Assembly (NCBI GenBank): GCA_042570305.1
Contig: JBHPGP010000002.1
Location: 4,024 to 68,023 of the forward strand
Direction of reading: 5' to 3'
From: Candidatus Omnitrophota bacterium
GTDB taxonomy: Bacteria > Omnitrophota > Gorgyraeia > Gygaellales > JAHJCI01
Length of the DNA stretch: 64,000 bases
The translations under genes were made by a program, and so were the position numbers. The notes under the pieces are model-generated. The model was given only the letters and a program-made list of their open reading frames with translations. It had not been told where the DNA came from and made no database searches. Shown one piece after another: positions 8,813 to 53,818 of this stretch (the stretch's first letter is position 1; each line of letters starts with the position of its first letter).

Positions 8813-8887
8813 CGGGGCGTGGCTCAGTTTGGCTAGAGCGCTTGGTTTGGGACCAAGAGGTCACAGGTTCAAGTCCTGTCGCCCCGA
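8813..8887 (+). tRNA. tRNA-Pro (anticodon TGG)
   Basis: Cloverleaf derived by hand: acceptor CGGGGCG/CGCCCCG, anticodon stem CTTGG/CCAAG with loop TTTGGGA, T-arm ACAGG-TTCAAGT-CCTGT, discriminator A. Confidence 0.8.
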
Positions 8888-8915: not shown

Positions 8916-8992
8916 GCGCCTGTAGCTCAGATGGATAGAGCATCTGCCTTCTAAGCAGAGGGTCGCGTGTTCGAATCACGCCAGGCGCACCA
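8916..8992 (+). tRNA. tRNA-Arg (anticodon TCT), CCA encoded
   Basis: Acceptor GCGCCTG/CAGGCGC, anticodon stem TCTGC/GCAGA with loop CTTCTAA, T-arm GCGTG-TTCGAAT-CACGC, then A-CCA. Confidence 0.8.
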
Positions 8993-11775: not shown

Positions 11776-11943
11776 TCAAAACCCCTTTCTTATGGCAACC
11801 GTACTTAAGGAATTTCCTTAGTTAACTATATACTAATCTTAAATGCAAATTTTAATTTTTCAAGGAAAATTTGTATAGTCTTGCTTAAAGAAAATGGTTT
11901 ACAGCAATAGGAGTATAGGTATAATATATGCTTACCGTAAATT

Positions 11944-12018
11944 GGTGGGTGTAGCTCAGCTTGGCAGAGCACTTGACTGTGGCTCAAGTTGTCGCGGGTT
12001 CAAATCCCGTCACCCACC
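11944..12018 (+). tRNA. tRNA-His (anticodon GTG) with encoded G-1
   Basis: Extra 5' G (G-1) opposite discriminator C73. Acceptor GTGGGTG/CACCCAC, anticodon stem CTTGA/TCAAG with loop CTGTGGC, T-arm GCGGG-TTCAAAT-CCCGT. Confidence 0.85.
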
Positions 12019-15500: not shown

Positions 15501-18500
15501 GTTCGTTTCTCCCGCGGTGGCGTACGGCATCAGCCAGCCCGCATCTCCCCGTAAGATCATGCTTTCCAAAGCCCAGACCATTTTTCTCAGAAAGCTTGCC
15601 CGGAGGAACTGGGCGTTCTTTGAGAATTTCGTTACCGAGAAGGATCACTGGCTGCCCCCGGACAATTTTCAGGAAGTACCTGTTAGCGGTCTGGCTCATA
15701 GGACGTCTCCAACGAATATCGGCCTGTCGCTTCTTGCGAATTTGACGGCTTATGATTTTGGCTATGTTTCAATGGGGATGATGTTCCAGCGGACGGAAAA
15801 AACATTCGTCACCTTGAACCTTATGGAACGGTTCAGGGGGAATTTTTACAACTGGTACAATACGGAGACGCTGAAGCCTCTGGCACCTCTCTATATCTCA
15901 TCGGTGGATAGCGGAAACCTGGCCGGCCATTTGCTGGTCCTGCGTGCGGGGCTTAGGGAAATGAGTTCTCGGAAGATCATCTCCGCGAAGATGTTTGACG
16001 GGCTGGGAGATACCCTGGAGATCCTTTATCAAAGTGTGGCGGAGTTTGAGAAAAGCCGAAAGAGCACTGTCGTCGAACCCCTTCGGGGAGTTTCCCAAAG
16101 AGTCGAGCAATTTCAGGAAAAGTGTAAGTCTTCTCCCGCGCGTCTTTCGGAAATCTATACGTTTTTGCGCCAGCTTTCAACGGATATTTCCAAGGTTCTC
16201 ACGGGCTTGGATCAGAAACACTATGACCAATCTAAAAAATGGGCCCGCGCCTTGGAACGGCAGTGTTACGATTTTCTGGAGGATATGTCTTTTATCGCTC
16301 CCTGGATTTTGCTTGCGCCGGAAATACCGGGTATGTGGGAGGCAGGGGATGAAAAACAGCAGCAGCGACTCGGTCAGCTCCGGGAGGCTCTTCGGTCTTT
16401 GGACGAGATCCCCGCGCTTGGGGAAGTGGCCAGGCTTGAGCAGAAGCTAGTTCCGCTTATCGAGGAGATCACCGGGGCCATGCTGGTCGCGGATGATGAG
16501 TCAAAAAGGGCCCACGAATGGTTTTTAAAACTCCGCGAGACGATCAAGGATGCCGGAACACGGTCCGCCGAACGGATTAAAGCCATCGATTATATCGTGC
16601 TGCGGTGTAACGAGATATCTGGCATCGAATATGAATTCCTGTATGATAAGGGTACACACCTTCTTTCCATCGGATACAATGTCAGCGAGCATAAGGTGGA
16701 TCGGGGTTGTTATGATTTACTGGCGTCCGAGGCCCGGTTTTGCAGCTTTGTCGCGGTCGCTCAAGGGAAAATGCCTCAGGATCATTGGTTCAAGCTTGGT
16801 CGGATGATTGCAAAACTCGAAGGGGATCCTGTTCTGATCTCCTGGGGCGGGTCGATGTTTGAATATCTCATGCCTCTCTTGGTGATGCCGACCTATGCCG
16901 GGAGTCTGCTGGAACAGACCTACAAGGCCGCGGTTAGCGGTCAGATCCGGTATGCGGCCAATAACAATATTCCCTGGGGGATCTCAGAGTCCTGTTACAA
17001 TAAGTTCGATGCGAATATGGTTTACCAGTATCACTCTTTCGGAGTCCCGAATATGGGTTTCAAACCGGGACTCGCGGAGGATCTGGTCGTGGCCCCCTAT
17101 GCTTCGATGCTGGCCCTGATGGTTGAGCCGGAGAAGGCCTGTGAGAATCTCGAGCGCTTATCCTCGGAAGGGGTCGCAGGGATATATGGTTTCTATGAAG
17201 CGGTCGATTACACGCCTGCGCGTCTTGCTCCGGATCAAAACCGGGCGATCGTGAAATCCTACATGGCGCATCATCAGGGTATGAGTTTCTTGTCTCTGGC
17301 CTATGTGCTTCTGGACCAACCTATGCAAAGGCGTTTTCTTTCCGAGCCGATGTTTCAAGCAGCCGAGCTGCTTCTGCAAGAGCGCATCCCGGTCAGCGAA
17401 CCGTTCCTCTACGATTTTGAAGTAACCGGAATGCTGAGAAAATTCGGAGACCGGGAAACCCTTTTGCGGGTGTTTACGACTCCTCAAACTCCGGTGCCTG
17501 AAGTCCACCCGCTCTCCAACGGCCGCTACCACGTGATGGTAACCAACTCCGGAGGAGGCTATAGCCGCTGGCAAAATGTCTCCCTGACGCGCTGGTGTGA
17601 AGATGCGGCTCTGGACAATGACGGGACATTTGTTTATCTGCGGGATGTGGAGTCTGGTCAGTTCTGGTCTTCGGCATATCAGCCGACACGAAAAAATCCA
17701 AAGAGCTATGAAGCCTTGTTTTCTCAGGCTTGGGCGGAGTTCAAGCGCAGGGATCAGCAGATCGAAACGCATACCGAGATTGCGGTTTCTCCGGAAGATG
17801 ACATAGAACTACGCCGGGTGACGATCACCAACCGTTCACGTAATAGGCGTGTCATTGAAGTGACCAGTTACGCGGAAGTTGTGTTGAATGATCTCTCAAG
17901 CGATCAGGCCCACCGGACATTCAGTAATCTGTTCGTCCAGACCGAAATTATCAGGTCTCACCAGGCGATCCTTTGCAAGCGGCGTCCGCGCTCCGATAAA
18001 GAAACATTCCCCTGGATGCTGCACCTGATGGCAGTCCACGGGAATGCGCTCGTGGGTGCTACTTATGAAACTGACCGCAACAAGTTCATCGGACGAGGCC
18101 GCACGCTGGCGGATCCCGCAGCGATGGAGGGGCAGGACAATCTTTCGGACAGTGAGGGTTCTGTGCTTGACCCGATCGTTTCGATACGCAGCCGGATCGA
18201 ACTGCTGCCAGAGGAATCAGCCACGATCGATTATGTGACCGGAATATGCGAGAGCCGGGAATCCGCGCAGGCGCTTATGGAAAAATACAGGGACCGGAAT
18301 CTGGCCGACCGCGTTTTTAACCTGGCGTGGACTCACGGGCAGGTTGCCTTGCAGCAGATCAATACGACGGAGGCTTCCGCTCAGCTTTACGGCCGTCTGG
18401 CCAGCGCCATTTTGTACGCGAATCCCGCCTGGCGGTCGAGCGCGAGTATTTTGCGGCGGAATAACCGGGGCCAGTCTGATCTTTGGGGGTACAGTATTTC

Positions 18501-21324
18501 TGGGGATCTGCCGATCGTTCTCGTCCGCATCGAAAGCCAGGACAATATTAATCTCGTCGTGCAGATGCTGCAGGCGCATGCCTATTGGCGGATGAAAGGT
18601 CTGGCGGTTGATCTGCTGATATGGAATGAAGATAGTTCCATTTATCGCGATAGCCTGGGAGAGAGGATCATCGGGTTGATCGCCGCGAATGCCAAGGAGA
18701 TAGCGGGCCAGAATGGCGGTATTTTTTTAAGGCGCGCCGATCAGATATCCGAAGAGGACCGGATTCTCATACAAACGGTCTCCCGGATTATTATTTCGGA
18801 TCGCGGGGGGACGCTGGCGGAGCAGTTGGAGGATATGGTCCAGCCAAAGGTGAATTTCCTGCCGTTCGTTGCAACCAGGCAGGATGATCCGCAAGAAGAG
18901 GCCGAGGGTCCGGCGGAGCGTTCCGATCTTGTTTATTTTAATGGTGTAGGAGGATTTACCGGGGATGGGAGGGAATATGTGATCAAGACCTCGAGCTCGA
19001 ATACCACTCCCGCTCCGTGGGTCAATGTGCTGGCAAACCGGAATTTCGGTACGGTGATTTCCGAAAGCGGGAGCGCCTACACCTGGAGCGAGAACGCGCA
19101 TGAATTTCGCTTAACGCCCTGGAAAAACGATCCTGTTTCGGACGCTTCGGGAGAGGCGCTCTATATTCGCGATGAGGAGAGCGGAAGGTTCTGGTCTGCG
19201 ACCCCTCTTCCCGCGACGGGGAAGACCGGTTATATCTCGCGCCATGGATTCGGGTACAGCATTTTTGAGCACACCGAAAACGGGATAGTTTCGGAATTAA
19301 CGGTTTTCGTTTCCCTGGAGGATCGGGTCAAGTTCTCTGCCCTGAAGATCAGGAATATCTCTGGGCGCCGTAGGCGTCTTTGCGCGACGGCGTTTGCTGA
19401 ACTGGTCATGGGGACGTTCCGGGATAAATACCACATGCATATCCTGACCGAGATCGATCCCAAAAGCGGAGCTCTGTTTGCCCGCAATCCTTATAACAAG
19501 GAATTTCCCGACCGGGCTGTTTTTTTGGATGTGAGTGAACCGACGCGATTTGTGACCGGGGACCGGGTCGAATTTATCGGAAGGAACGGAACGCTGGCAT
19601 CGCCTTCCGTGATGCGAAGGGATAGGCTTTCCGGAAGAGTGGGCGCGGGGTTTGATCCGTGCGTTGCCACGCAGGTAAAATTTGAGCTTGATGACGGCCA
19701 GCAGAAAGAGATCGTTTTTACCTTGGGCTCCGGAAAAACTCCGGATGACGCCAGGGATCTCATCCGGCGTTTTGGCGGTATCGATGCGGCGCGTGATGAA
19801 CTTGAAAGGGTGTGGGAATATTGGAAACGGACCCTTGGTGTTGTGTATGTGGAAACGCCCGATGCCTCGATCAATATTCTCGTCAACGGTTGGCTGCAAT
19901 ATCAGGTTATAAGCTGTCGTCTCATGGGGCGAAGCGGTTTTTATCAATCCGGCGGGGCTTTCGGCTTTCGGGATCAGCTCCAAGATGTGATGGCGTTGAT
20001 CCATTCGAAACCGGAAATGGTCCGGGAGCAACTGCTGGACTTTGCCGCGCACCAGTTTGCGGAAGGAGATGTGCAGCACTGGTGGCATCCGCCATCCGGC
20101 CGAGGAGTCCGTAGCCGGTGTTCGGATGATTATTTATGGCTCCCCTTCGTGACCTGTCTGTATGTCGAGAATATCGGGGATACGGGGATTCTTGATGAAA
20201 CGGTCGGGTTTCTGGAAGGGCCCCTGGTTAATCAGGAAGAAGAATCTTACTACGATATGCCCAGAGTCTCCGTCCGTTCGGGGACACTGTACGAGCATTG
20301 TGTTTTAAGCGTGAAAAGGGGGTTGCAGTTCGGCGCGCATGGCCTTCCTCTCATGGGAAGCGGGGATTGGAATGATGCAATGAATCTGGTTGGGCGCGAA
20401 GGGAAAGGCGAAAGCGTCTGGCTTGCTTTTTTTCTCTTCGATGTTCTTCAGTCGATGGCGGTCTTGGCCGCTCAGCGTGGGGATAAGGTCATCTTGGAGC
20501 TCTGCGCTGAGGAGGCAAGGAAACTATCTAGGAATATTGAAGAGCATGCCTGGGACGGCGAGTGGTATCTCCGGGCCTATTTTGACAATGGGGATCCTCT
20601 GGGATCTTCCCTGAACAGCGAATGCCGGATCGATTCGATCCCCCAATCCTGGGCGGTGCTTTCAGGCGCGGCTCAGCGGGAAAGGGCCAGTCGGGCCATG
20701 GGTCAGGTGGATCGGCAGCTTGTCGACAGGAAGCACGCGCTGGTGAGATTGTTCGACCCTCCTTTTGATAAGGCTTCCCCTAACCCGGGATACATCAAAG
20801 GCTATGTTCCCGGCGTGAGGGAGAACGGGGGACAGTACACGCATGCTGCGGTCTGGGTGGCGATCGCGTTCGCGGTCTTAGGGGATACAAAGCGGGCTTG
20901 GGAGTTGTTTCATATGATCAACCCGGTGCATCATTCTGATGACGCGGATAAGTGTGCCGTTTACAAAGTGGAGCCGTTCGTGATGGCCGCAGATGTGTAT
21001 GCCTCTCAGGGCCTTGCCGGACGCGGGGGATGGACCTGGTACACCGGGTCCGCGGGTTGGATGTATCAGCTTATAGTGAAGCATTTGCTGGGGGTTCGGT
21101 TGAAAGTGGACCGGATCTATTTCGAGCCCTGCCTTCCAGCGGGTTGGCCCTCTTGGAGGCTGCATTACCGCTACCGGGAGACCTTCTATCATATTACTTT
21201 TGCGTGTTCAGGATCGTCAAATCATATAACGTCTATTGCGGTGGATGGTGTCGCGCAGGAGGAAAAGGTTGTCCGGCTCATTGATGATCGAGTAGAGCAT
21301 TCAGTGGAAGTGCAGATTGAATGA
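12535..21324 (+). CDS. cgs: Cyclic beta-1,2-glucan synthase (Cgs/NdvB/ChvB-like; N-terminal region with TMs and GT84 glycosyltransferase, C-terminal GH94 glucan phosphorylase-like domain)
   Basis: Single 2929-aa ORF with a TTG start preceded by AGGAG. TM helices around aa 430-470 and 830-900 flank a DxD-containing GT region (LDADTRTS...GYGILQPRV). The C-terminal third has cellobiose-phosphorylase/GH94-like blocks (YFNGVGGFTGDGREYVI, APWVNVLAN, TPWKNDPVSD). Size and order match Brucella/Agrobacterium Cgs (~2.8-2.9 kaa). Confidence 0.8.
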   Translation: MSLKFLQDYILPLKMRLGAFLHWNRITEEEPLRAELFSIEQFKAHAKKLAQGHMVSYKKGHNKLLLRLKQNENVLVEIYKLLNETGKSKRKISPAGEWLLDNYYLIEEQIRLAQKCLPEHYIRELPHLFQGPLAGYPRVYELAMELVSHGDGRLDSQGLTEFVTAYQTVNHLKLGELWAIPIMLRLALIENLRRVSSRMIVAQTERDKANYWATRILKVSAKDTDGVVFEIVAMSRANPLLSDAFVAEFMRRLHGQIQVFNLPFAWLEKKLAEQGDTLERIIRATSQKQASDQVSIANTIGSLRLLEITDWHDFVEALSVVEKLLGQDPSGDYRRMSFATRDRYRHVVEQFSLRSKITEEEIAARAIRLAKTGEKKFGPGHVKAHVGFYLIDRGLELFCRELGLRLPLRQYLQAKKTFWPSVLFFGAITFITLALTVGILYWVQPAGLLSWRRLVLFWVSLFLVTSQTAVSMVNWSFMMLVRPKNLPRMDFSEGIPAYAHTLVVVPCIISDARTVDSLLEGLEVRYLANIDANTDFALLTDFCDAKQETMPEDEVLLAQVKDGVAKLNYKYRRKKEYVFCLLHRPRRWNEREKLWMGYERKRGKLGDLNALLRGKGDGRFSVILGDTQRLQDVQYVITLDADTRTSRNAARELVGVIAHPLNRPVYDEKKQRVVSGYGILQPRVEPSYPGKTPSLFAKIFGGDTGIDPYTKTVSDVYQDVFFEGSFIGKGLYDVDSFERSMEGRFPENAILSHDLLEGCYARSGLVTDVQFYEGYPQGYLKDVSRRHRWICGDWQILSWLFASVRVHSGAKVKNPISFLSQWKIMDNLRRSLVPFATVLLFLSGWICFQPSWIWSVLVLALMGFPLVPMSLAEAVRKSELLTFKTHVGLVVSSCRKNLLRLFFSFVFLLHEAVYCLDAIARTLWRMLVSRRRLLQWKTFLEAEASLSERISGYYQSMWLAPLAAAVLLVFFLAVFQRFDGLTLFFVSLWFVSPAVAYGISQPASPRKIMLSKAQTIFLRKLARRNWAFFENFVTEKDHWLPPDNFQEVPVSGLAHRTSPTNIGLSLLANLTAYDFGYVSMGMMFQRTEKTFVTLNLMERFRGNFYNWYNTETLKPLAPLYISSVDSGNLAGHLLVLRAGLREMSSRKIISAKMFDGLGDTLEILYQSVAEFEKSRKSTVVEPLRGVSQRVEQFQEKCKSSPARLSEIYTFLRQLSTDISKVLTGLDQKHYDQSKKWARALERQCYDFLEDMSFIAPWILLAPEIPGMWEAGDEKQQQRLGQLREALRSLDEIPALGEVARLEQKLVPLIEEITGAMLVADDESKRAHEWFLKLRETIKDAGTRSAERIKAIDYIVLRCNEISGIEYEFLYDKGTHLLSIGYNVSEHKVDRGCYDLLASEARFCSFVAVAQGKMPQDHWFKLGRMIAKLEGDPVLISWGGSMFEYLMPLLVMPTYAGSLLEQTYKAAVSGQIRYAANNNIPWGISESCYNKFDANMVYQYHSFGVPNMGFKPGLAEDLVVAPYASMLALMVEPEKACENLERLSSEGVAGIYGFYEAVDYTPARLAPDQNRAIVKSYMAHHQGMSFLSLAYVLLDQPMQRRFLSEPMFQAAELLLQERIPVSEPFLYDFEVTGMLRKFGDRETLLRVFTTPQTPVPEVHPLSNGRYHVMVTNSGGGYSRWQNVSLTRWCEDAALDNDGTFVYLRDVESGQFWSSAYQPTRKNPKSYEALFSQAWAEFKRRDQQIETHTEIAVSPEDDIELRRVTITNRSRNRRVIEVTSYAEVVLNDLSSDQAHRTFSNLFVQTEIIRSHQAILCKRRPRSDKETFPWMLHLMAVHGNALVGATYETDRNKFIGRGRTLADPAAMEGQDNLSDSEGSVLDPIVSIRSRIELLPEESATIDYVTGICESRESAQALMEKYRDRNLADRVFNLAWTHGQVALQQINTTEASAQLYGRLASAILYANPAWRSSASILRRNNRGQSDLWGYSISGDLPIVLVRIESQDNINLVVQMLQAHAYWRMKGLAVDLLIWNEDSSIYRDSLGERIIGLIAANAKEIAGQNGGIFLRRADQISEEDRILIQTVSRIIISDRGGTLAEQLEDMVQPKVNFLPFVATRQDDPQEEAEGPAERSDLVYFNGVGGFTGDGREYVIKTSSSNTTPAPWVNVLANRNFGTVISESGSAYTWSENAHEFRLTPWKNDPVSDASGEALYIRDEESGRFWSATPLPATGKTGYISRHGFGYSIFEHTENGIVSELTVFVSLEDRVKFSALKIRNISGRRRRLCATAFAELVMGTFRDKYHMHILTEIDPKSGALFARNPYNKEFPDRAVFLDVSEPTRFVTGDRVEFIGRNGTLASPSVMRRDRLSGRVGAGFDPCVATQVKFELDDGQQKEIVFTLGSGKTPDDARDLIRRFGGIDAARDELERVWEYWKRTLGVVYVETPDASINILVNGWLQYQVISCRLMGRSGFYQSGGAFGFRDQLQDVMALIHSKPEMVREQLLDFAAHQFAEGDVQHWWHPPSGRGVRSRCSDDYLWLPFVTCLYVENIGDTGILDETVGFLEGPLVNQEEESYYDMPRVSVRSGTLYEHCVLSVKRGLQFGAHGLPLMGSGDWNDAMNLVGREGKGESVWLAFFLFDVLQSMAVLAAQRGDKVILELCAEEARKLSRNIEEHAWDGEWYLRAYFDNGDPLGSSLNSECRIDSIPQSWAVLSGAAQRERASRAMGQVDRQLVDRKHALVRLFDPPFDKASPNPGYIKGYVPGVRENGGQYTHAAVWVAIAFAVLGDTKRAWELFHMINPVHHSDDADKCAVYKVEPFVMAADVYASQGLAGRGGWTWYTGSAGWMYQLIVKHLLGVRLKVDRIYFEPCLPAGWPSWRLHYRYRETFYHITFACSGSSNHITSIAVDGVAQEEKVVRLIDDRVEHSVEVQIE

Positions 21325-21956: not shown

Positions 21957-22310
21957 ATGAAAGGTATTACCGATCCCAATCTTATTTATTCTACTGACAG
22001 TGGCTCAATCTGTCCTGATTGTTCTAAGTCGCTCAAGGAGTGTATCTGCCGTGAAATAAAAAGGAACGCTTTACCCGAAACCAGCGGCAAGGTGAGGATA
22101 CGGCATGAGACTGCTGGTAGAAAAAATAAAGGTGTAACCATAATTTATGGTTTGTCTTTAAACCAGGAGCAGCTTGAGAAGTTGACTAAGAAATTAAAGA
22201 GCACCTTTGGCACAGGCGGAACTGTAAAAGATTACACAATTGAGCTGCAGGGTGACCAGCGAGGAAGAGTCAGAGTTGAATTATGCAGGCTGGGTTATAG
22301 AGATCTCTGA
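21957..22310 (+). CDS. yciH: Translation initiation factor SUI1/YciH family
   Basis: RKNKGVTIIYGLSL...LEKLTKKLKSTFGTGGTVKD..IELQGDQRGRVRVELCRLGY, the eIF1/SUI1 fold signature. Confidence 0.8.
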   Translation: MKGITDPNLIYSTDSGSICPDCSKSLKECICREIKRNALPETSGKVRIRHETAGRKNKGVTIIYGLSLNQEQLEKLTKKLKSTFGTGGTVKDYTIELQGDQRGRVRVELCRLGYRDL

Positions 22311-22513
22311 ATAGCGAGAGGTTTTCATACGAGAGGGAACACATTTTCAACTAATAAATATGTTGACAAATTCCGAAAATGATGTTATAGTAACCACGTA
22401 GTAAATAGAGGAGAAAATGTCTAAGCCGTCAGGCCGAAAAGTATTCGCCTTGCGGTTTTTTTTGTTTCTGCTGTTATTTGCTATAATTTAGCAAGAAGGA
22501 GGTGTAGTAAATA

Positions 22514-22714
22514 ATGGTAAAAGGAACAGTTAAGTGGTTCAGTAACCAGAAGGGTTACGGTTTTGTTACCCCTGAGTCAGGAGAAGATGTATTCGTGCAT
22601 CATAGCGTAATCCAGGGTGATGGCTATAAGTCTTTAGATGAGGGTCAAGAGGTCGAACTTGAAATCGAAACAGGCCCTAAGGGCAAACAAGCCACAAAGG
22701 TAGTAAAGTTGTAA
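22514..22714 (+). CDS. cspA: Cold-shock protein (CspA family)
   Basis: [33 protein letters not shown], with RNP1/RNP2 motifs. 66 aa. RBS aaggagg. Long 5' UTR. Confidence 0.9.
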
Positions 22715-22820: not shown

Positions 22821-23027
22821 ATGCATAAAGGACAAATAAAGAAGCTTATGCGCGAGAGGGGCTTTGGGTTTATCAGCGACACAGACGGAAGGGAAGTATT
22901 TTTTCATCAGAGTGGCCTGGTAGAGACTAAATTCGATACTTTGAATGAAGGCCAAGAGGTTGAGTTTGAAGTTGAAAATTCTCAAAAAGGCCCTCGGGCG
23001 ATTAATATAAGTATTCTCAAATCCTAA
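22821..23027 (+). CDS. Cold-shock domain protein (second Csp paralog)
   Basis: MHKGQIKKLMRERGFGFISDTDGREVFFHQSGL. RBS aaggagg. The track start at 22782 is upstream, but the ATG at 22821 is the better start. Confidence 0.8.
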   Translation: MHKGQIKKLMRERGFGFISDTDGREVFFHQSGLVETKFDTLNEGQEVEFEVENSQKGPRAINISILKS

Positions 23028-23053
23028 AAGCAGGCAAGGCTGTCTGCTTTAAT

Positions 23054-23090
23054 ATCCCAAGCAAGATTTTGCTTGGGATATTTTATTTTT
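23054..23090 (+). terminator. Rho-independent terminator after the csp genes
   Basis: Perfect hairpin atcccaagcaa-gatt-ttgcttgggat followed by attttattttt. Confidence 0.7.
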
Positions 23091-23094
23091 AGTA

Positions 23095-23116
23095 GTATAA
23101 TCTGACTATAGAAATT
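23095..23116 (+). promoter_or_regulatory. Conserved promoter/leader module copy A (gTATAAT -10 + TGACTATAGAAATT)
   Basis: gtataatctgactatagaaatt matches 26309-26330 at 21/22 positions. The upstream attttgcttg block is also shared. Confidence 0.5.
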
Positions 23117-23154
23117 TAAGTCTGCCTTTAGTCCTGCCTTGCGGAAGACAAAAT

Positions 23155-24801
23155 ATGCTTGATGCGGCCCAAAAAAGATACAGATTTAGGGTTGTTATTC
23201 CCGCCTATTCGGCATTTAACATTTATTCTGATATTGCCAAGCGGACTACGGCCTTGGGGCCGGTGTGTGTTGCCAGCAGCGTAAACGAAATGCAAGGCTG
23301 GGATGTTGAGGTTATTGATGAGAATAACCTCCGTAGATACGGACCAAGAAGCGATTCAAGAGGGGCTGACCATGAATTCTTACAACGGCAGAGACCTGCG
23401 GATGTCATCGGCTTATACGGGGGATTGACCAGTACTATACCCAGGCTTTATAAAGTAGCCTGCTTTTATAAAGAGAAGGGTGCTGTGACTATTGCCGGAG
23501 GCCAGCATTTTGTGGGAGATAATATTGTTGAGGCCTTAAATTCTTGCATTGACTATGTAGTTATTGGCGAGGCAGAAGAAACGATTAAAGAGCTTCTCTT
23601 GGCGATACAAGGTAAGGCAGATGTAGGCAAAATCAAAGGTATTGCCTATTTAAAAAATGGTCAGGTTTTCTTGACTCCCGAAAGGGAGCCCCTGAATGAT
23701 TTCGACAAGTTGCCCCTGCCGGATTTTTCCTTAGTGCGTTACGCCAAGATTAAGCTTTATCCTGTTGAAAGGATACGCGGTTGTGGCATGGATTGCGAGT
23801 TTTGTACGGTTAAGGGCAAGCCAAGATTTGCTTCTCCCGAACGGCTGCTTGAGCGCATCAGCTTCCTTTTGGAAACAAAGGATGCCAGGCACTTTTTTAT
23901 TGTCGATGACCTTTTTGGGCAACAACGTGATGAAACAATCAGGTTCTGCAGAATGCTTGCGGATTATCAGAAGGGCATAGGCAGAAGGCTGGATACGACT
24001 GTCCAGATAAGATTGGATAAAGCCAAAGACACTGAGTTACTTTCTGCTATGCGGCAGGCGGGAATTAACACAGTAGCCATCGGATTTGAGTCACCCATTG
24101 AGGAAGAATTAAGGGCTATGAACAAACATATCAGACCCGAGGATATGCTATCCCTTACAAAGATATTTCATAGATTTGGATTTTTGGTACACGGCATGTT
24201 TATCTTTGGCTATCCGGTAAAAGAAGGAGTGAATTTTAAAATGTCCGCACCTGAACGAGTAAAGCGTTTTAAAGATTTTATTAGGAAAGCTAAAATTGAC
24301 ACTATACAGGTTTTACTGCCCGGTCCTTTACCAGGGACAGAATTAAGACATAGGCTTCAAACACAAAACAGGATTTACCCGGTTCAGGACGTGGGCTGGG
24401 AATATTATGATGGTAATTTTCCCCTATTTGAGCCTGATCAGCCCATGAGCTCTGAAGAGATGCAGGCTTCTATCAGGCAGATTATGGGCAAGTTTTATCA
24501 GTTTAAATATATGTTTATGATAGTCTTAAATATATTTTCTTTTTCCAGTTTAATCTTCTTTTTACACAATATTCAGGCAGGATGGAGGAGATGGTATCGC
24601 CCTTGGCGTAATCATTTAGTTCGTTTTGGCGGTTGGATCCTTATCAGGAAGTGGTCTTCAGCGTTAAAAAGGGATATGTTCTCGCAAAAATTGCAAAAGG
24701 CAAAAGAGCACCTAAATGAATGTAACTTAAGGAGAGGGCATTCGGCAAGGACAGGGCATGGCTGTATAAGCCAGCCCTTTAACAAGAGAGGTCAAGATTA
24801 A
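23155..24801 (+). CDS. B12-binding (class B) radical SAM protein with C-terminal hydrophobic tail
   Basis: N-terminal cobalamin-binding-like region. Radical SAM cluster motif CGMDCEFC (CxxxCxxC). 548 aa. C-terminal membrane-like segment MFMIVLNIFSFSSLIFFL. Confidence 0.7.
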   Translation: MLDAAQKRYRFRVVIPAYSAFNIYSDIAKRTTALGPVCVASSVNEMQGWDVEVIDENNLRRYGPRSDSRGADHEFLQRQRPADVIGLYGGLTSTIPRLYKVACFYKEKGAVTIAGGQHFVGDNIVEALNSCIDYVVIGEAEETIKELLLAIQGKADVGKIKGIAYLKNGQVFLTPEREPLNDFDKLPLPDFSLVRYAKIKLYPVERIRGCGMDCEFCTVKGKPRFASPERLLERISFLLETKDARHFFIVDDLFGQQRDETIRFCRMLADYQKGIGRRLDTTVQIRLDKAKDTELLSAMRQAGINTVAIGFESPIEEELRAMNKHIRPEDMLSLTKIFHRFGFLVHGMFIFGYPVKEGVNFKMSAPERVKRFKDFIRKAKIDTIQVLLPGPLPGTELRHRLQTQNRIYPVQDVGWEYYDGNFPLFEPDQPMSSEEMQASIRQIMGKFYQFKYMFMIVLNIFSFSSLIFFLHNIQAGWRRWYRPWRNHLVRFGGWILIRKWSSALKRDMFSQKLQKAKEHLNECNLRRGHSARTGHGCISQPFNKRGQD

Positions 24802-24856
24802 ATATAATCACGCCTTATTCCTTAATCCGTATATTGCAGGAAGCGCTACGGATACG

Positions 24857-26242
24857 ATGTTGCTTTTTCCGCCCATAGGGCTGGAATATATAGCTACGAG
24901 CGCTAAGGGCCTGGTCGGTAAAATCACGCTTTTGGATCTGAGGTATGAAAATGATTTTGCCGAAGATACGGATAAGCTTCTTAAGTTTATATCCGAATCG
25001 GTTGATATTATCTGTGTCACTATCGGCTGGGACAGGCATTTTGAAGAAATCTGCCAGCTGCTTAACCGCTTGCCGGCTGGGATACCCTTAGTCATAGGCG
25101 GTTATAAAGCTACGGAAAAGGTAGAAGAACTTTTTAAAATTTGCCCTGCCATAGATATCATAGTCAGGGGCGAAGGCGAAGAGACAATACAGGAAATATT
25201 AAAGGGCATAGCGCCAAAAAATATCCTGGGTATTTCTTACAGGCGGGGGGAGCGGGTTATACATAATGCTAACCGTCCGCTTCCGGATGTTGATAAGCTA
25301 CCGGTGCCTGACCGAGCCCTCAGGCACAACGAATACATGATGGCAATAAACGGCATCAAATTAGGGAATCTTACTTTTGATTCGGTATTAAGCGCCAGGG
25401 GGTGCCCCTTTAATTGTAAATTCTGCACATTCAGTTTAAATCCCCTGGGTCAGAAAAGAAGCTATGCCGCGCGCCGCGTAAGCGACGTGGTTGAGGAAAT
25501 CCAAAGCTTGAAGGCAGACGTAGTGCTCTTCAGCGATGATAACCTTTTCGTCGATCCCAAGAGGGCAGAGGAAATTTGCGACCAAATCATTGAACGCAAG
25601 ATAAAAAAGCGCTTCATTGCTCAGGCACGTATTGAAATTGGCAGGCATCCAAGGCTGCTGGAGAAAATGGTGAAAGCCGGATTCAAGGCATTGTTGATCG
25701 GGATAGAATCTCCTCACGACTGGATACTGGAGCAGCTGAATAAAGGCTTCAATCAAGCAGCGATAAGAGAATATTTTGCGGTACTCAGGAAATATCCGAT
25801 TTTATACAGCGGTTATTTTATATACGGTAACATAGGGGAGAGCAAAGAGGAGATGCTTTATATCGCACAATTCGCCAAGGAGATAGGAGTCGATATTATT
25901 GCTACCAATAAATTAAGGATCGAGAAATTTTCCCCTTTAAAGGAGCTTGCCGAAAAAACACCGGGTTATCATGTAACCGCAAAGGGAGAACTGTATTCCG
26001 ATACGTATAGCCACGCGGCCTTGAAGAAAATAGGCAAAAAGATAAAATTCTCTTTTTATACCCCCTCCAGATATCTAAAGATAGCCTGGAAGAATGTTTT
26101 CGTAACAAGGTTCTATACCTTTAATGAGGTACTGCTGATTTTAATTGCCGCGCCCCGTCTCATTACGAGCATCATTGCCAGGGAAAGGCGTAGAGGAAAG
26201 CTTAAGGATTCCTTAAGGCGCACCTTTATTAGGAATAGCTGA
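24857..26242 (+). CDS. B12-binding (class B) radical SAM protein, paralog
   Basis: GCPFNCKFCTF radical SAM motif. B12-binding-like N-terminal region (LVIGGYKATE...VRGEGEE). 461 aa. Adjacent to its paralog at 23155. Confidence 0.7.
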   Translation: MLLFPPIGLEYIATSAKGLVGKITLLDLRYENDFAEDTDKLLKFISESVDIICVTIGWDRHFEEICQLLNRLPAGIPLVIGGYKATEKVEELFKICPAIDIIVRGEGEETIQEILKGIAPKNILGISYRRGERVIHNANRPLPDVDKLPVPDRALRHNEYMMAINGIKLGNLTFDSVLSARGCPFNCKFCTFSLNPLGQKRSYAARRVSDVVEEIQSLKADVVLFSDDNLFVDPKRAEEICDQIIERKIKKRFIAQARIEIGRHPRLLEKMVKAGFKALLIGIESPHDWILEQLNKGFNQAAIREYFAVLRKYPILYSGYFIYGNIGESKEEMLYIAQFAKEIGVDIIATNKLRIEKFSPLKELAEKTPGYHVTAKGELYSDTYSHAALKKIGKKIKFSFYTPSRYLKIAWKNVFVTRFYTFNEVLLILIAAPRLITSIIARERRRGKLKDSLRRTFIRNS

Positions 26243-26308
26243 AAAGCGCATTCAATTTCGCACAAGTCCGCTTTCCAGGAAAATTTTGCTTGCGGGGTTT
26301 TATTAAGG

Positions 26309-26330
26309 GTATAATTTGACTATAGAAATT
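26309..26330 (+). promoter_or_regulatory. Conserved promoter/leader module copy B
   Basis: gtataatttgactatagaaatt. See copy A (23095-23116). Confidence 0.5.
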
Positions 26331-26426
26331 CAATTTTTTTGACTGAACCTGACTTTAGAAGGGCTTAATATGCCCTGTGCAACTAAAAAAGCTAAAGACA
26401 AATTCTTGGCTTGAGGGAAGAATTGG

Positions 26427-28343
26427 ATGGATAGGCAAGAGGCAGCGGAAGAATTTCTCAATAGTTTAATCAGAACCTTGAATAAGGCTTCTTTTTATGC
26501 AAATGACCACCCGGCATTTTTAAAAGCTGTTGATGATTTTAGAAATACAGTAGATTCAACCCACCGTTTTATAGACCCCATCGTAATCGGCACTACCATC
26601 AATTCTATATTCGTCGACCAAAGAGAATTTTCTGGTCAGCATTACGAGGATTTAGCCAAAAGGCTTCATCAGCGCAGAATCAAAATCATGCAGATTAGAA
26701 AAGGCACAACACTTGAAGAATTATCGCTTTTCTTAAATAAAATATCAGCTCCTCTTAAAGATATCATTAAAAGCGGAGGCATAGCCCACATTTTAAATAA
26801 AGAAAATATGCCCCATCTGTCCATAGAAGAGCTGGACTATTCCGAATTATTAAAAACAGATACAGGCGAATATAAAGATATATGGGTATATTTATTAGGC
26901 GACGCCCTGGAGAAACAGGATCACTCTAAAGTTATCCAGCTGTCAGATATTTTTGAGAAAATGACGAGATATTACACAATCAAGGAGCTTTTAGAAAATG
27001 ACGAGCTTAGAGAAACCCTGCAAAAGTTTTTTAACTACATCAAGGATAGGGATAAGGAAAGATTTTCGCAATGCTCCCTGAAAATAGCAGAGCATATATT
27101 CGTTATCAAGGATGACGCTTTTCAGGTAGAGCTGGAGAAAATGAGAGCATTATTCAATAGTTTTACCGAAAGTGATTTTGCCGAAATGTTAACCAATGAG
27201 GTTTTGAATGTAGATGCATTTGATAGCTCCGGCCTGGACCTATTCTCTAAAATTACCAGTGCAGAGATACACCCCGCTATTGCTTCTTTAACGGCAAAGT
27301 CGCTTAATCAGAGGGTTCTTGGTGATAAGCAGAAGATAAGAAATAAAATAGAAAGCCTCCTGCGCGATAGCGATAAATCCTCCTGCTCCCAGGTATATCT
27401 AGATACCCTTTCTTCATTCTTAAAGAGTATCTCCGGTGCAAGAGGCTTTTCCTTTGACCACGATTTGGCATATGCCAATTATCGCTTAATTCTGCTTGAT
27501 CTGCTTCTTCGATGGCAAAGCAAAGACAGGTTAGAGGCAATTATAGAAGAAGCCTCAAAGATATTGAAAAATAAAGACCAGGGTGTGGACGTTACATATA
27601 TTAAGCTTCTTGCGGACATTATAAAGAAGAAAAAAACGGAGGCTCCCCAGATGTCGTTACTATTGGACGGGCTGGATAAACAGATAACCCATTTTGTAGA
27701 AAACAATATCTGGGACGAAGAGCCTTCTGCGGATTTTCAATATCTCTCAGATTATTTAGAGTCCAGCACGTTGGGGGTTGATTTATACCTCAATAGGATA
27801 TTCGATGAAAATAAAGTGAATGCCGCAGTATTGAAATTATTTTTAAAATTTTTTCCGGACAGCCTGCATCTTTTTAACATGAATTTAAAGAAGAGAATTT
27901 CTGATATAGACTTCATCAGTAATCTTATCAAGAGCTTGAAAGCAGTGGATAGCCCTTTGGGCTTGAATATATTAGAGCAAATATATTTATTCTCTGAAAA
28001 TTACATTAAGATAGAGGTTTTAAGGGCGATGCAGGACATGGGTGCATTCGACAAAGAGTTCTTATTATCAATTCTACAAAAAGATAATGCCTTTTTGAAA
28101 AAAGAAGCCCTGCTGGCGTTAATGAAAGATGAAAAGGCCAAGGGACAGGCTCTGGAAGTTCTTTTCTCCACCAAAGGTTCCCGGAGAACCGTAAATAGAG
28201 CCTTACTGGAAAATATAATACTGGTTGAGGAGATGGGGTTAAAAGAGGCAAAAGATTATTTGAAGGCTGTTAGCAAAAATCTCTTTTTCTGGAATTGGGG
28301 CATAAAAAGAAGAATCAGGGAGATTCTCAGTAAATGGAAATAA
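26427..28343 (+). CDS. Hypothetical protein (638 aa) sharing an N-terminal module with the downstream HD protein
   Basis: No catalytic motif recognised. N-terminal ~110 aa align by eye with the N-terminus of ORF 28334 (FY..HP.F...IG....F....EF...LA..L..R.I.I.......EEL..F). Overlaps the next gene, so operonic. Confidence 0.5.
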   Translation: MDRQEAAEEFLNSLIRTLNKASFYANDHPAFLKAVDDFRNTVDSTHRFIDPIVIGTTINSIFVDQREFSGQHYEDLAKRLHQRRIKIMQIRKGTTLEELSLFLNKISAPLKDIIKSGGIAHILNKENMPHLSIEELDYSELLKTDTGEYKDIWVYLLGDALEKQDHSKVIQLSDIFEKMTRYYTIKELLENDELRETLQKFFNYIKDRDKERFSQCSLKIAEHIFVIKDDAFQVELEKMRALFNSFTESDFAEMLTNEVLNVDAFDSSGLDLFSKITSAEIHPAIASLTAKSLNQRVLGDKQKIRNKIESLLRDSDKSSCSQVYLDTLSSFLKSISGARGFSFDHDLAYANYRLILLDLLLRWQSKDRLEAIIEEASKILKNKDQGVDVTYIKLLADIIKKKKTEAPQMSLLLDGLDKQITHFVENNIWDEEPSADFQYLSDYLESSTLGVDLYLNRIFDENKVNAAVLKLFLKFFPDSLHLFNMNLKKRISDIDFISNLIKSLKAVDSPLGLNILEQIYLFSENYIKIEVLRAMQDMGAFDKEFLLSILQKDNAFLKKEALLALMKDEKAKGQALEVLFSTKGSRRTVNRALLENIILVEEMGLKEAKDYLKAVSKNLFFWNWGIKRRIREILSKWK

Positions 28344-29698
28344 TAGAGAAGGTTAAAGAACTGATTGTCGATTTGATTGCCTGCACGCAAATGATTAAGC
28401 TTTATTCCGGCAGGCATAAGATATTTGAGGACTCTATTGATAAGTTATATGAGAGTGCGCAAGAAACTTTAAAAGAAAGGGATGAGCTGGTTATAGGGAT
28501 TGTTGGCGATGAGTTCGTCTTTGAAAAAGAGATTTTCTTCGAGCTGAGTAAAACATCTCTCGCCGGGATACTAATCGCCTCTCTCAGGGCAAGGGGTATA
28601 GAGAGAATTATTTTTTATCCGCAGCTGCATAAAGAGGAGCTGGAAATGTTCATTACTTTTGTAGTCAATCCCCTAAAAGAACAAATTGAAGGCAATTCAC
28701 AGAAATACCTGGCTGCCCTAGGGATTCGCAACATAGCCGTAGATAAGATTAGGACACCTAATGCCCCTGCGGAAACCGTGATAAAGAAAAAGTTACAAGA
28801 GGCAACAGAAAGTTTTGGAATATATGAAGATTATTCTAATAAAGCCTCTGAATATTTGGAAGCGCCGTTAAATAATGCTGTCATAGACCACCTTGCTTTA
28901 AGGATTGTCCTGCTCAAGATTATTGAGAATTTATCTGTCCGGAAGGAGTTTTTGAAATTTTCCGTAATAAAAAGGGACGAGGCAGCAAGATTTTTGCATT
29001 TCGTAAATGTTTCGATTTTGGCAATGTATTTATCTTCTAAACTGGGATTTTCTCAGAATGATACCCTGGATATAGGCATCGCAGCATTATTCCATGATAT
29101 CGGCAAGATTTATATTTCCAGGGAGTTGCGCAGCAGTAATAATAGATTAACAAAGGAGGAATCAGCCGATATTAAAAGCCACACCCAATTGGGGCCAGCG
29201 CTGCTTTTAAAATATGTTGATACTTTGGGCATTTTGCCGGTGGTAGTTTCGTTTGAGCATCATTTAAGATACGATTTAAAGGCTTATTCTGAATTATTGT
29301 CTGGATATAAACCTCACATTGCCTCTTTGATTATTTCTATATGCGATGTGTACGACGCTCTTTGCCAAAGGCGAAGTTATAAATACGGCTATCCCCCGGA
29401 TGCCATCTATAACCTGATGATGAAGGGAAGGGGCAGCGCCTTTGAGCCGGATCTTTTGGATACCTTTTTTAGAGTAACAGGAGTATGGCCTATAGGCACA
29501 GTCGTATTATTAAGTGACAACAGAGTTGCCATAGTGCGCCAGGAAAATGAAGACGACATATTCAGGCCTAAAGTGGAAATTGCAGAATCTCAGGACAAAA
29601 ATGAACTTATTGATTTAAAGGATAAGAAAGCTGAGCTCAAGATAGAGCGCGCCCTCAATCCTTTAACAGAAGGCAAAGTTTATCTCCGCTTAATTTAA
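28334..29698 (+). CDS. HD-domain phosphohydrolase, degenerate HD-GYP type
   Basis: HDIGK...HHLRYDLKAY...D..DAL: HD metal-binding residues are present, but the HHExxDGxGYP signature is degenerate (GYP lost). Confidence 0.7.
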   Translation: MEIIEKVKELIVDLIACTQMIKLYSGRHKIFEDSIDKLYESAQETLKERDELVIGIVGDEFVFEKEIFFELSKTSLAGILIASLRARGIERIIFYPQLHKEELEMFITFVVNPLKEQIEGNSQKYLAALGIRNIAVDKIRTPNAPAETVIKKKLQEATESFGIYEDYSNKASEYLEAPLNNAVIDHLALRIVLLKIIENLSVRKEFLKFSVIKRDEAARFLHFVNVSILAMYLSSKLGFSQNDTLDIGIAALFHDIGKIYISRELRSSNNRLTKEESADIKSHTQLGPALLLKYVDTLGILPVVVSFEHHLRYDLKAYSELLSGYKPHIASLIISICDVYDALCQRRSYKYGYPPDAIYNLMMKGRGSAFEPDLLDTFFRVTGVWPIGTVVLLSDNRVAIVRQENEDDIFRPKVEIAESQDKNELIDLKDKKAELKIERALNPLTEGKVYLRLI

Positions 29699-29783
29699 AA
29701 CCTGGTCGCGAGGCGCCGGGAAAGTTTTTGAAATTAAGAAACATAAGGCCAGGCAAACAATCAGTGGCCTAAGAGGCGTTCAG

Positions 29784-38158: not shown

Positions 38159-38300
38159 GCAATTTCGCGAATTACTGGTTTCCCGCCTTTAGATTTTCCT
38201 TTACAGATTTATCCCGACAGAGTAATATATTAAGTCATAAAGGCATTGCCATTACAACTCTTTGCCGTTATTGGGGTTATTTGCAATTGACCCGCGTTCA

Positions 38301-53755: not shown

Positions 53756-53818
53756 AATGGTAATAATAAGGTTGAGCAGTCAGTTTAAATAAAGGATTTT
53801 TTAAACGGAGGTGCACAG

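What the first reader, a model, noticed from the sequence alone, without database searches (positions are those of the whole stretch)
23060..26372. Duplicated ~50-nt promoter/leader module upstream of a B12-radical-SAM gene and of the hypothetical/HD operon
The regions upstream of 23155 and 26427 share attttgcttg, a 15-20 nt spacer, then gTATAAT(c/t)TGACTATAGAAATT (21/22 identical over the core), although the downstream coding sequences are unrelated.

A conserved block immediately downstream of the -10 (TGACTATAGAAATT) suggests a shared operator or conserved 5' leader. This would mean co-regulation of the B12-rSAM pair with the hypothetical + degenerate HD-GYP operon by a common factor.

In copy A, the -35-like ttgctt also forms the 3' arm of the upstream csp terminator hairpin.
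Basis: seen in the sequence. Interest (0 to 1): 0.55.

Follow-up and report, generated by a model that had tools for sequence, protein, structure and literature searches.

The report
Duplicated promoter and gene start
A roughly 125-base piece holding the promoter, leader and first codons of a radical-SAM gene was copied 3.2 kb downstream in front of another operon in an uncultured Omnitrophota bacterium; this is an ordinary case of promoter capture, not evidence of a new regulatory system.

Summary
GTATAATyTGACTATAGAAATT occurs at 23095-23116 and 26309-26330, 21 of 22 bases identical, with no other copy in the window and none in shuffles. Copy B (26277 to about 26401) is homologous to copy A (23060-23187) from the loop of the csp2 terminator hairpin through the -10 box, the whole 5' leader, the ATG and about 10 codons of the B12-radical-SAM gene. 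So B is a paralogous copy of that gene's 5' end. Its old start codon survives as a 14-codon relic ORF (26370-26414) in front of the hypothetical/HD operon.

Copy A is ancestral. Hairpin plus TATAAT is kept in four related Omnitrophota contigs where synonymous sites are only 46-61% identical. In one relative the leader is deleted and the ATG sits 6 nt after TATAAT, which places the transcription start at A23108 (A26322 in B).

The 22-base core holds only 2 of 51 variable sites in the three-way alignment, so both promoters appear to be under selection. A shared operator is not shown: there is no dyad, no third copy, the block is 10/14 in one relative and lost in another, and it is absent upstream of hyp/HD orthologues. 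The verdict is promoter capture by an old segmental duplication, of modest interest.

The parts
22821..23027 (+). csp2, the second of two cold-shock-domain genes, upstream neighbour of copy A
   Evidence: Pfam CSD E = 5e-22. The csp2-rSAM1 adjacency is kept in L097-L100, L125 and L053.
23051..23090 (+). csp2 intrinsic terminator: perfect 14-bp stem (23051-23064 / 23069-23082), 4-nt loop, T-run 23083-23090. The T-run also serves as the spacer of promoter A.
   Evidence: z = -6.3; I1, 100% complementary. Conserved in L099, L097 and L125.
23060..23187 (+). Copy A, full extent of the segment homologous to copy B: hairpin loop and 3' arm, promoter, 5' leader, ATG and about 10 codons of rSAM1
   Evidence: Local alignments with shuffle controls, three-way alignment A2. 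No similarity beyond these ends.
23073..23078 (+). Copy A -35-like hexamer TTGGGA, 17-nt spacer to the -10
   Evidence: Promoter scan, 10 of 12 matches. The same hexamer and spacing occur in L099.
23096..23101 (+). Copy A -10 hexamer TATAAT
   Evidence: Invariant in all six aligned sequences.
23103..23116 (+). Copy A conserved block TGACTATAGAAATT: discriminator (-6 to -1) plus +1 to +9. The inferred transcription start is A23108.
   Evidence: 14/14 with B, 13/14 with L099, 10/14 with L125. The TSS is inferred from the -10 + 7 nt rule and from L097, where the ATG occupies that position.
23155..24801 (+). rSAM1, a B12-binding radical SAM gene driven by copy A
   Evidence: Pfam PF02310 + PF04055. 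75-86% identical orthologues across Omnitrophota, aligned from residue 1.
24857..26242 (+). rSAM2, a second B12-binding radical SAM gene about 26% identical to rSAM1. It lies between the two copies.
26277..26401 (+). Copy B, full extent of the paralogous copy of the rSAM1 5' end. It has no partner 5' arm, so no terminator hairpin forms.
   Evidence: The fold of 26236-26310 is not better than shuffles (z = 0.54). Flanks are unrelated.
26286..26291 (+). Copy B -35-like TTGCTT (3 of 6 matches), brought to an 18-nt spacing by a 3-nt deletion relative to A
   Evidence: Read from the sequence and alignment A2. It falls below the threshold of the promoter scan.
26310..26315 (+). Copy B -10 hexamer TATAAT
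26317..26330 (+). Copy B conserved block TGACTATAGAAATT. The inferred transcription start is A26322.
26370..26414 (+). 14-codon ORF MPCATKKAKDKFLA*, a relic of the rSAM1 start codon and first codons. Its stop overlaps the Shine-Dalgarno-like GAGGGA of the 638-aa gene.
   Evidence: It aligns with ATGCTCGATGCAGCTAAAAAAAGATACAGA of L099 rSAM1 and with the window rSAM1 start.
26427..28343 (+). 638-aa hypothetical gene, first gene downstream of copy B
   Evidence: No Pfam or NCBIfam family. 19 homologues, all full length. Its N-terminal 120 aa are related to those of the HD protein.
28334..29698 (+). HD_5 / HD-domain protein overlapping the 638-aa gene. It is followed by a terminator-like hairpin at 29701-29720.
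   Evidence: Pfam HD_5 E = 6e-11. The hyp+HD pairing is conserved in L102-L104. Terminator scan.

Best explanation
Copy A is the native promoter of the B12-radical-SAM gene rSAM1.

It is a sigma-70-type promoter (TTGGGA, 17 nt, TATAAT) packed against the csp2 intrinsic terminator, whose T-run serves as the promoter spacer. Transcription starts at about A23108, giving a 47-nt leader.

Copy B arose when a segment of about 125 nt was copied to a point about 35 nt after the rSAM2 stop codon. The segment runs from the loop of that hairpin to about codon 10 of rSAM1. It was copied either directly, or by a 3.2-kb tandem duplication followed by deletion of the second gene copies.

The copy gave the downstream 638-aa/HD operon its own promoter. 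This promoter P' has TTGCTT, an 18-nt spacer and TATAAT, with a start at about A26322 and a 105-nt leader that contains the decayed rSAM1 start as a 14-codon upstream ORF.

Since then the flanks have drifted to near-neutral similarity, while the 22-nt core has been kept in both copies. The core comprises the -10 box, a 6-nt discriminator and the first 9 or so transcribed bases. Both promoters are therefore in use.

Shown: the homology and its extent, the hairpin, orthologous conservation, and excess conservation of the core.

Inferred: the start sites, the direction A to B, the activity of P', and the reason the post -10 block is kept. The most likely reason is start-site and initial-transcribed-sequence function of the promoter itself. 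A bound regulator is not required.
For: - Core: two matches with up to 3 mismatches in the window, none in 100 shuffles.
- Extended homology through the leader, ATG and first codons: score 25.5 against 10.2 +/- 1.5 in shuffles (0/1000) versus L099, and 11/1000 versus window A. Upstream part 1/1000. Alignment A2.
- Ends of homology: no similarity beyond 26277 or about 26401.
- Direction A to B: the hairpin is perfect and conserved at A and its orthologues. B keeps only the loop and 3' arm and does not fold (z = 0.54). B carries a relic of the rSAM1 start, and hyp/HD orthologues L102-L104 lack the module.
- Promoter reality: hairpin, T-run and GTATAAT are kept in L099/L100, L097/L098 and L125, while 4-fold synonymous sites of rSAM1 are only 46-61% identical.
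- Start site: in L097/L098 the sequence is TATAAT-cttatt-ATG, and that ATG aligns with the window start codon. Three window genes show the same leaderless layout.
- Constraint on the core: 91-95% identity in all three pairs against 42-66% in the rest of the leader. Only 2 of 51 variable sites fall in the 22-nt core, where about 9 are expected.
- Parallel cases of promoter duplication in this phylum: 38191-38229 / 44003-44041 in the window, and 59-100 / 3429-3470 in L095.
Against: - No transcription data exist, so both start sites and the activity of P' are inferred.
- The -35 of B matches only 3 of 6 positions and failed the scan threshold.
- The block downstream of the -10 is more conserved (14/14, 13/14, 13/14) than promoter function alone usually demands. 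This leaves room for a bound factor or an RNA-level role.
- The excess conservation was found post hoc and rests on three sequences. Corrected for choosing the window, P is roughly 0.01-0.05.
- The timing is unresolved. Unique changes are winA 18, L099A 7 and winB 22, which fits no strict clock.
- The rest of the genome could not be searched, so further copies cannot be excluded.
Confidence: 0.72

Rival explanations
1. Shared operator. TGACTATAGAAATT, spanning -6 to +9, binds one transcription factor, most simply a repressor that occludes RNA polymerase. The rSAM pair and the hyp/HD operon would then form a small regulon.
For: The block is identical in both copies and 13/14 in L099/L100, while neighbouring leader sequence has drifted to 42-66%. 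Its position over the start site is typical of repressor operators (established knowledge).
Against: - There is no dyad or direct-repeat symmetry beyond CTATAG (sequence).
- There are only two copies in 64 kb. No copy occurs in 609 kb of related loci apart from the orthologous site.
- The block is 10/14 in L125 and completely deleted in L097/L098, which keep the promoter.
- It is absent upstream of hyp/HD orthologues.
- The identity is already explained by descent.
Confidence: 0.15
2. 5'-terminal RNA element. The first bases of both transcripts (AUAGAAAUU) would be recognised at the RNA level. The candidate partner is the adjacent Csp proteins, or the bases could act as a stability tag, in the manner of the cold box at the 5' end of cspA-family mRNAs.
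For: The best-conserved sub-block across winA, winB, L099, L125 and L035 is the transcribed part AWAGAAA. Copy A lies directly after two csp genes. The csp1 leader weakly matches the Rfam cspA thermoregulator (38 bits, E = 2e-7, below gathering). A cold-box element near the 5' end of cspA mRNA is documented (PMC6719143, and PMC1636342 citing Xia et al. 2002).
Against: - No conserved secondary structure is found in the three leaders (consensus -2.6 kcal/mol).
- Single folds are not better than shuffles for A (z = 0.16).
- No Rfam family hits the module.
- L097 dispenses with the leader altogether.
- The resemblance to the E. coli cold-box sequence rests on memory and needs a gap.
Confidence: 0.08
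3. Copy B is an inert relic. It would be a leftover of a tandem duplication with no promoter activity, and hyp/HD would be expressed only by read-through from rSAM1-rSAM2.
For: The -35 of B is weak, 3 of 6. No + strand terminator lies between rSAM1 and the HD gene, so read-through is plausible.
Against: Each copy has about 20 unique substitutions in about 125 nt, yet B has none in its 22-nt core. Its differences from winA and L099A there are unique to those two. An inert copy should have decayed evenly.
Confidence: 0.04
4. Chance or convergent resemblance of two independent strong promoters, or a small mobile element carrying an outward promoter.
For: TATAAT promoters are common in this genome. 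The pattern TATAATNTGACTATAGAAAT also turns up in unrelated phyla and phages at about the rate expected by chance for AT-rich DNA.
Against: Significant similarity continues for about 70 nt beyond any promoter element and into a coding start. No terminal inverted repeats or target duplication are present, and there are only two copies. No other promoter in the window shares the block.
Confidence: 0.01

Closest known systems
Promoter capture by segmental or tandem duplication, for example the rnk-citT module of the E. coli long-term evolution Cit+ lineage (from my own knowledge)
   Same: A duplicated segment places an existing upstream promoter in front of a downstream gene that lacked one. The repeat spacing (3214 nt) equals the would-be duplication unit. 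The junction lies at non-functional points, inside a hairpin loop and inside a coding sequence.
   Different: Only about 125 nt of the second copy remains. The event is old, with about 20 substitutions per copy, and has been maintained, not observed in real time. Whether it was a tandem duplication plus deletion or a direct short copy cannot be told.
Overlapping intrinsic terminator and promoter in compact intergenic regions
   Same: Hairpin plus T-run is followed at once by a -10. The -35-like hexamer lies in the 3' arm and the T-run is the spacer. The arrangement is conserved in four related contigs.
   Different: Nothing unusual in kind. The point of note is that the half-hairpin was carried along to copy B, where it has no partner arm.
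Cold box of cspA-family 5' leaders
   Same: A short conserved block at the extreme 5' end of more than one transcript, next to csp genes.
   Different: No stem-loop is predicted. It is not in the csp leaders themselves. No Rfam match falls on the module. Sequence similarity is weak and recalled from memory. This is a lead only, not membership.
Sigma-70-dependent promoter-proximal pause elements, that is -10-like hexamers in the initial transcribed region as at lambda PR' (from my own knowledge)
   Same: A -10-like TATAGA sits at -1 to +5, 11 nt after the true -10, inside the conserved block.
   Different: It lacks the critical final T of a -10 hexamer. No pause data exist. Untested.

Membership tests
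Sigma-70-type promoter | -10 hexamer close to TATAAT | tested here: met
   Perfect TATAAT at 23096-23101 and 26310-26315. Invariant in orthologues.
Sigma-70-type promoter | -35-like hexamer 16-18 nt upstream | tested here: inconclusive
A has TTGGGA with a 17-nt spacer, 4 of 6. B has TTGCTT with an 18-nt spacer, only 3 of 6, below the scan threshold.
Sigma-70-type promoter | Mapped transcription start about 7 nt after the -10 | not testable with these tools
   Indirect support only. In L097/L098 the conserved ATG sits exactly 6 nt after TATAAT, the leaderless layout. The same layout is found at window genes 92, 44047 and 50063.
Intrinsic (rho-independent) terminator | G+C-containing hairpin followed by a T-run | tested here: met
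   This applies to copy A only: 14-bp perfect stem at 23051-23082 plus TTATTTTT. Copy B does not meet it (z = 0.54).
Segmental duplication (paralogous DNA) | Similarity that continues beyond the functional motifs, with defined ends | tested here: met
   The leader, ATG and about 10 codons align (0/1000 and 11/1000 shuffles). No similarity outside 26277 to about 26401.
Transcription-factor operator or regulon motif | Internal symmetry (dyad or direct repeat) typical of dimeric regulators | tested here: not met
   Only CTATAG is palindromic. AATTT...AAATT arms exist in B and L099 but not in A.
Transcription-factor operator or regulon motif | Recurrence at several unlinked promoters of one genome | tested here: inconclusive
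   Two copies in the 64-kb window, and the third-best site has 2 mismatches in a non-promoter context.
Transcription-factor operator or regulon motif | Conservation upstream of orthologous genes | tested here: inconclusive
   rSAM1: 13/14 in L099/L100, 10/14 in L125, deleted in L097/L098, absent in 80 more distant loci. hyp/HD: absent in L102-L104.
Structured cis-regulatory RNA (riboswitch, thermoregulator, leader) | Match to a curated family, or a conserved secondary structure | tested here: not met
   No Rfam hit on either module at gathering or E <= 10. Consensus fold -2.6 kcal/mol with one compensatory pair.
Miniature mobile element carrying a promoter | Terminal inverted repeats, target-site duplication, multiple dispersed copies | tested here: not met
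   None found around either copy. Two copies only.

The most novel reading that the evidence does not exclude
The 14-nt block that spans the transcription start (consensus TRAYTAWAGAAAWT) is a true cis-regulatory site. It would be either an operator or a 5'-terminal RNA tag read by an uncharacterised Omnitrophota factor, possibly linked to the adjacent cold-shock proteins. The duplication would have been selected because it wired an HD-GYP-like signalling operon into the same control as the highly conserved B12-radical-SAM enzymes.
Probability: 0.2. Interest if true: 0.45.

Novelty: new member of a known kind. Interest (0 to 1): 0.3.

Why it matters
Almost nothing is known about transcription signals in Omnitrophota, an uncultured phylum.

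This locus gives a phylogenetically supported promoter with a start site pinned by a natural leader deletion in a relative. It also gives a clear example of how an operon gains a promoter by copying its neighbour's 5' end, relic start codon included.

It also corrects annotation. The 14-codon ORF before the 638-aa gene is a gene-start fossil, not a leader peptide of independent origin.

It does not by itself reveal a new regulator or mechanism.

Tried and rejected
- **Genome-wide motif search.** TATAATNTGACTATAGAAAT in 185,579 species genomes gave 16 single hits. None was in Omnitrophota. Several lay in coding sequence and all were in unrelated taxa, a number compatible with chance for this AT-rich pattern. 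Two hits that extended the match (Sporomusa; an Ignavibacteria rho leader) were inspected and dismissed.
- **Viral contigs.** There were 18 hits, 12 of them from one phage family with its own terminator-promoter. They are unrelated to this locus.
- **Source MAG.** Exact-protein look-ups found no record, so the rest of the genome could not be scanned.
- **Known RNA families.** Only tmRNA and tRNAs reach the gathering score, and a sub-threshold cspA hit falls on the csp1 leader. Nothing falls on the modules.
- **Conserved leader structure.** None found.
- **Third site at 11868-11881 (minus strand, 2 mismatches).** It has no -10 in front and is a chance match.
- **Module B after rSAM2 in other rSAM1-rSAM2 loci.** Absent in L027. 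L095 has its own, different duplicated promoter.
- **Extension of homology into the csp2 3' end or further into rSAM1.** Not significant.
- **Function of the genes.** NCBIfam gives no equivalog for either rSAM. The 638-aa protein has no family.
- **Phage-type (SP6/T7-like) promoter reading of GACTATAGAA.** Rejected: the spacing differs by 2 nt, and this rests on recall only.
- **Minus-strand promoter (TATAGT).** It has no acceptable -35 and nothing to transcribe.
Full report
**Context**

The window comes from a Candidatus Omnitrophota metagenome-assembled genome. The two proteins next to the modules are 100% identical to NCBI entries from an 80,378-bp contig named that way.

Gene order on the + strand:

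| Gene | Coordinates | Annotation |
|---|---|---|
| SUI1 | 21957-22310 | translation initiation factor SUI1 domain |
| csp1 | 22514-22714 | cold-shock domain |
| csp2 | 22821-23027 | cold-shock domain |
| rSAM1 | 23155-24801 | B12-binding radical SAM |
| rSAM2 | 24857-26242 | B12-binding radical SAM |
| hyp | 26427-28343 | 638 aa, no family |
| HD | 28334-29698 | HD_5/HD protein, overlaps hyp |

A terminator-like hairpin follows at 29701-29720. No + strand terminator is predicted between 24801 and 29700.

Yes. GTATAATyTGACTATAGAAATT lies at 23095-23116 and 26309-26330, 21 of 22 identical. These are the only matches in the window even with 3 mismatches, and no shuffle gave any. ATTTTGCTTG is shared further upstream.

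In copy A this decamer is the loop and 3' arm of a perfect 14-bp hairpin (23051-23082) followed by TTATTTTT. That hairpin is the csp2 terminator.

One detail is wrong. TTGCTT is 21 nt from the -10 in A. The usable -35-like hexamer there is TTGGGA with a 17-nt spacer. In B a 3-nt deletion brings TTGCTT to 18 nt.

**The similarity is much longer than reported**

I aligned only the sequence downstream of the 22-mer, with these results:

| Comparison | Score | Shuffles | Shuffles reaching the score |
|---|---|---|---|
| B downstream vs orthologous A region of L099 | 25.5 | 10.2 +/- 1.5 | 0 of 1000 |
| B downstream vs window A | 14.5 | 9.5 +/- 1.4 | 11 of 1000 |
| B upstream vs window A upstream | 16.0 | 8.3 +/- 1.4 | 1 of 1000 |

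The downstream alignment runs through the entire 5' leader and the ATG. It continues into the coding sequence: ATGCCCTGTGCAACT-AAAAAAGCTAAAGA in B against ATGCTCGATGCAGCTAAAAAAAGATACAGA in rSAM1.

Beyond 26277 on the left and about 26401 on the right nothing is similar. So copy B (26277 to about 26401) is a paralogue of 23060-23187. That segment comprises half the csp2 terminator, the promoter, the leader, the start codon and about 10 codons of rSAM1. The 14-codon ORF at 26370-26414 (MPCATKKAKDKFLA*) is the fossil of the rSAM1 start. Its stop codon overlaps the Shine-Dalgarno-like GAGGGA of the 638-aa gene.

**Which copy is the original?**

Copy A. Four lines of evidence point that way:
- The hairpin is intact and functional-looking at A. 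At B only the loop and 3' arm exist and the region does not fold better than shuffles (z = 0.54).
- B carries rSAM1 codons.
- The csp2-hairpin-TATAAT-rSAM1 arrangement is conserved in related contigs L099/L100 (rSAM1 85% aa), L097/L098 (85%) and L125 (82%), and partly in L035.
- Orthologues of the hyp/HD operon (L102, L103, L104; 45-57% aa) have different upstream neighbours and no module.

**Is it a promoter, and where does transcription start?**

Among the rSAM1 orthologues, 4-fold synonymous sites are only 46-61% identical. The hairpin, T-run and GTATAAT are nevertheless almost invariant. That is a clear phylogenetic footprint.

In L097/L098 the sequence reads TATAAT-cttatt-ATG, and this ATG aligns with the window start codon (MLNVARKRLRLRIVIPAY against MLDAAQKRYRFRVVIPAY). 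A start codon 6 nt after a -10 is the signature of a leaderless mRNA. The same layout occurs at three genes in the window, at 92, 44047 and 50063.

By the usual rule that transcription starts about 7 nt after the -10 (established knowledge), this natural leader deletion places the start at A23108 in A and A26322 in B. The conserved 14-mer therefore covers the discriminator (-6 to -1) and +1 to +9.

**Is the post -10 block under selection?**

Identity by segment in the three-way alignment of winA, L099A and winB:

| Segment | winA-L099A | winA-winB | L099A-winB |
|---|---|---|---|
| Upstream part (hairpin 3' half to spacer) | 78% | 71% | 73% |
| 22-nt core | 91% | 95% | 95% |
| Rest of the leader | 62% | 42% | 66% |
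| ATG and first codons | 82% | 62% | 71% |

Of 51 variable sites in 125 aligned columns, only 2 fall in the 22-nt core, where about 9 are expected. My binomial estimate is P about 1e-3 before correcting for the post-hoc choice of window, and roughly 0.01-0.05 after.

Each window copy carries about 20 unique substitutions (winA 18, winB 22, L099A 7). The duplication is therefore old, and B has not decayed in its core. This argues that P' is a working promoter.

The timing relative to the window/L099 split is unresolved, because the branch lengths fit no clock.

The constraint is not universal. L125 has TTAATTAAAGAAAAT (10/14) and L097 has lost the block. The most stable sub-block is the transcribed AWAGAAA.

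**Is it an operator or a leader element?**

Neither is shown.
- The block has no dyad symmetry beyond CTATAG.
- No other promoter in the window shares it.
- The only third site with 2 mismatches or fewer (11868-11881, minus strand) has no -10 in front.
- 609 kb from 80 related Omnitrophota loci contain no further copy.
- Scans of species genomes and viral contigs returned only scattered hits in unrelated taxa, at about the number expected for an AT-rich 19-mer.
- No Rfam family matches the modules, and the leaders share no structure.

The rest of the source genome could not be reached, so a small regulon cannot be excluded. Because no terminator separates the four genes, hyp/HD may also be expressed by read-through, with P' acting as an internal promoter.

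**Mechanism proposed**

A segment of about 125 nt at the 5' end of rSAM1 was copied to a point about 35 nt after rSAM2. This happened either directly, or by a 3214-nt tandem duplication of the unit [hairpin loop ... rSAM2 + 35 nt] followed by deletion of the second rSAM1'-rSAM2' from codon 10 or so onward. The result is promoter capture for the hyp/HD operon.

The closest well-known analogue is promoter capture by tandem duplication, as in the E. coli Cit+ rnk-citT case (my own knowledge).

Promoter duplication seems recurrent in this phylum:
- The window holds a second family, 38191-38229 and 44003-44041, 35 of 39 identical, with TTTACA-17-TAATAT.
- The distant contig L095 has an unrelated 42-nt promoter (TTGACA-16-TATAAT) repeated upstream of rSAM1 and just after rSAM2, 37 of 42 identical. 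This is the same P-rSAM1-rSAM2-P' layout, arrived at with a different sequence.

**Verdict**

The shared operator and common factor are unproven and are not needed to explain the identity.

This is a new example of a known kind of event, of modest interest. Its value is as one of the few phylogenetically anchored promoters and start sites in Omnitrophota, and as a neat gene-start fossil.

Noticed in passing
window 38191-38229 and 44003-44041: A second duplicated promoter family: AG(A/T)TTTTCCTTTACAG(A/T)TTT(A/G)TCCCGA(C/A)AGAGTAATATA, 35 of 39 identical (score 31 against 10.4 +/- 1.5 in shuffles). It has TTTACA-17-TAATAT. One copy is upstream of a GT2+methyltransferase gene (38262) and the other upstream of a HycI-like protease gene (44047). 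In the second copy the ATG lies 6 nt after the -10, the leaderless layout.
   Followed up: partly
L095 59-100 and 3429-3470: In a distant Omnitrophota contig (rSAM1 71% aa) an unrelated 42-nt promoter, AATTCTnnCGTTGACATTGGnGATAATAAnnATATAATATAC, is repeated upstream of rSAM1 and just after rSAM2, in front of a MoxR/DUF58/BatD operon. The copies are 37 of 42 identical. This is the same P-rSAM1-rSAM2-P' layout as in the window, reached with a different sequence. Two of the three loci with adjacent rSAM1-rSAM2 show it (L027 does not).
   Followed up: partly
L097 445-461 and L098 (same sequence): In this relative the rSAM1 leader is deleted (TATAAT cttatt ATG), so the gene is probably expressed from a leaderless mRNA. 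Window genes at 92, 44047 and 50063 have the same -10 + 6-8 nt + ATG arrangement.
   Followed up: yes
window 22363-22513: csp1 has a strong promoter (TTGACA-17-TATAGT with TG) and a leader of about 120 nt that contains a hairpin plus T-run and a second TATAAT. The region 22475-22757 matches the Rfam cspA thermoregulator below threshold (38 bits against a gathering score of 78, E = 2e-7). The leader is conserved in L099.
   Followed up: no
window 22174-22201: Inside the SUI1 coding sequence, TTGACTAAGAAATTAAAG resembles the block TTGACTATAGAAATT with a 1-nt deletion. It is probably chance.
   Followed up: no
window 26427-26790 and 28334-28700: The 638-aa hypothetical protein and the HD protein share a related N-terminal domain of about 120 residues (26% identity, E = 1e-4) that has no Pfam family. 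In the HD protein the HD motif is present (FHDIGK), but the HHExxDGxGYP region reads HHLRYDLKAY, which agrees with a degenerate HD-GYP.
   Followed up: partly
window 58565-58722 and 58732-58889; 53804-54180 and 54395-54771: A perfect 158-nt direct repeat with 167-nt spacing lies just upstream of the gene at 58905. There are also 76-83% identical repeats spaced 591 nt apart across two adjacent genes of 186 and 199 aa, probably tandem paralogues.
   Followed up: no
window 12535-21324; 1529-1940: A single 2929-aa ORF, not examined, and a tmRNA gene (186 bits). tRNA genes lie at 8813-8887, 8916-8989 and 11945-12018.
   Followed up: no
L106-L122 (IMG/VR contigs): Twelve related phage contigs carry a hairpin plus T-run followed by TATAATATGATTATAGAAAT. 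The layout is the same terminator-then-promoter, and the post -10 sequence is similar by chance. They count as one independent hit.
   Followed up: partly
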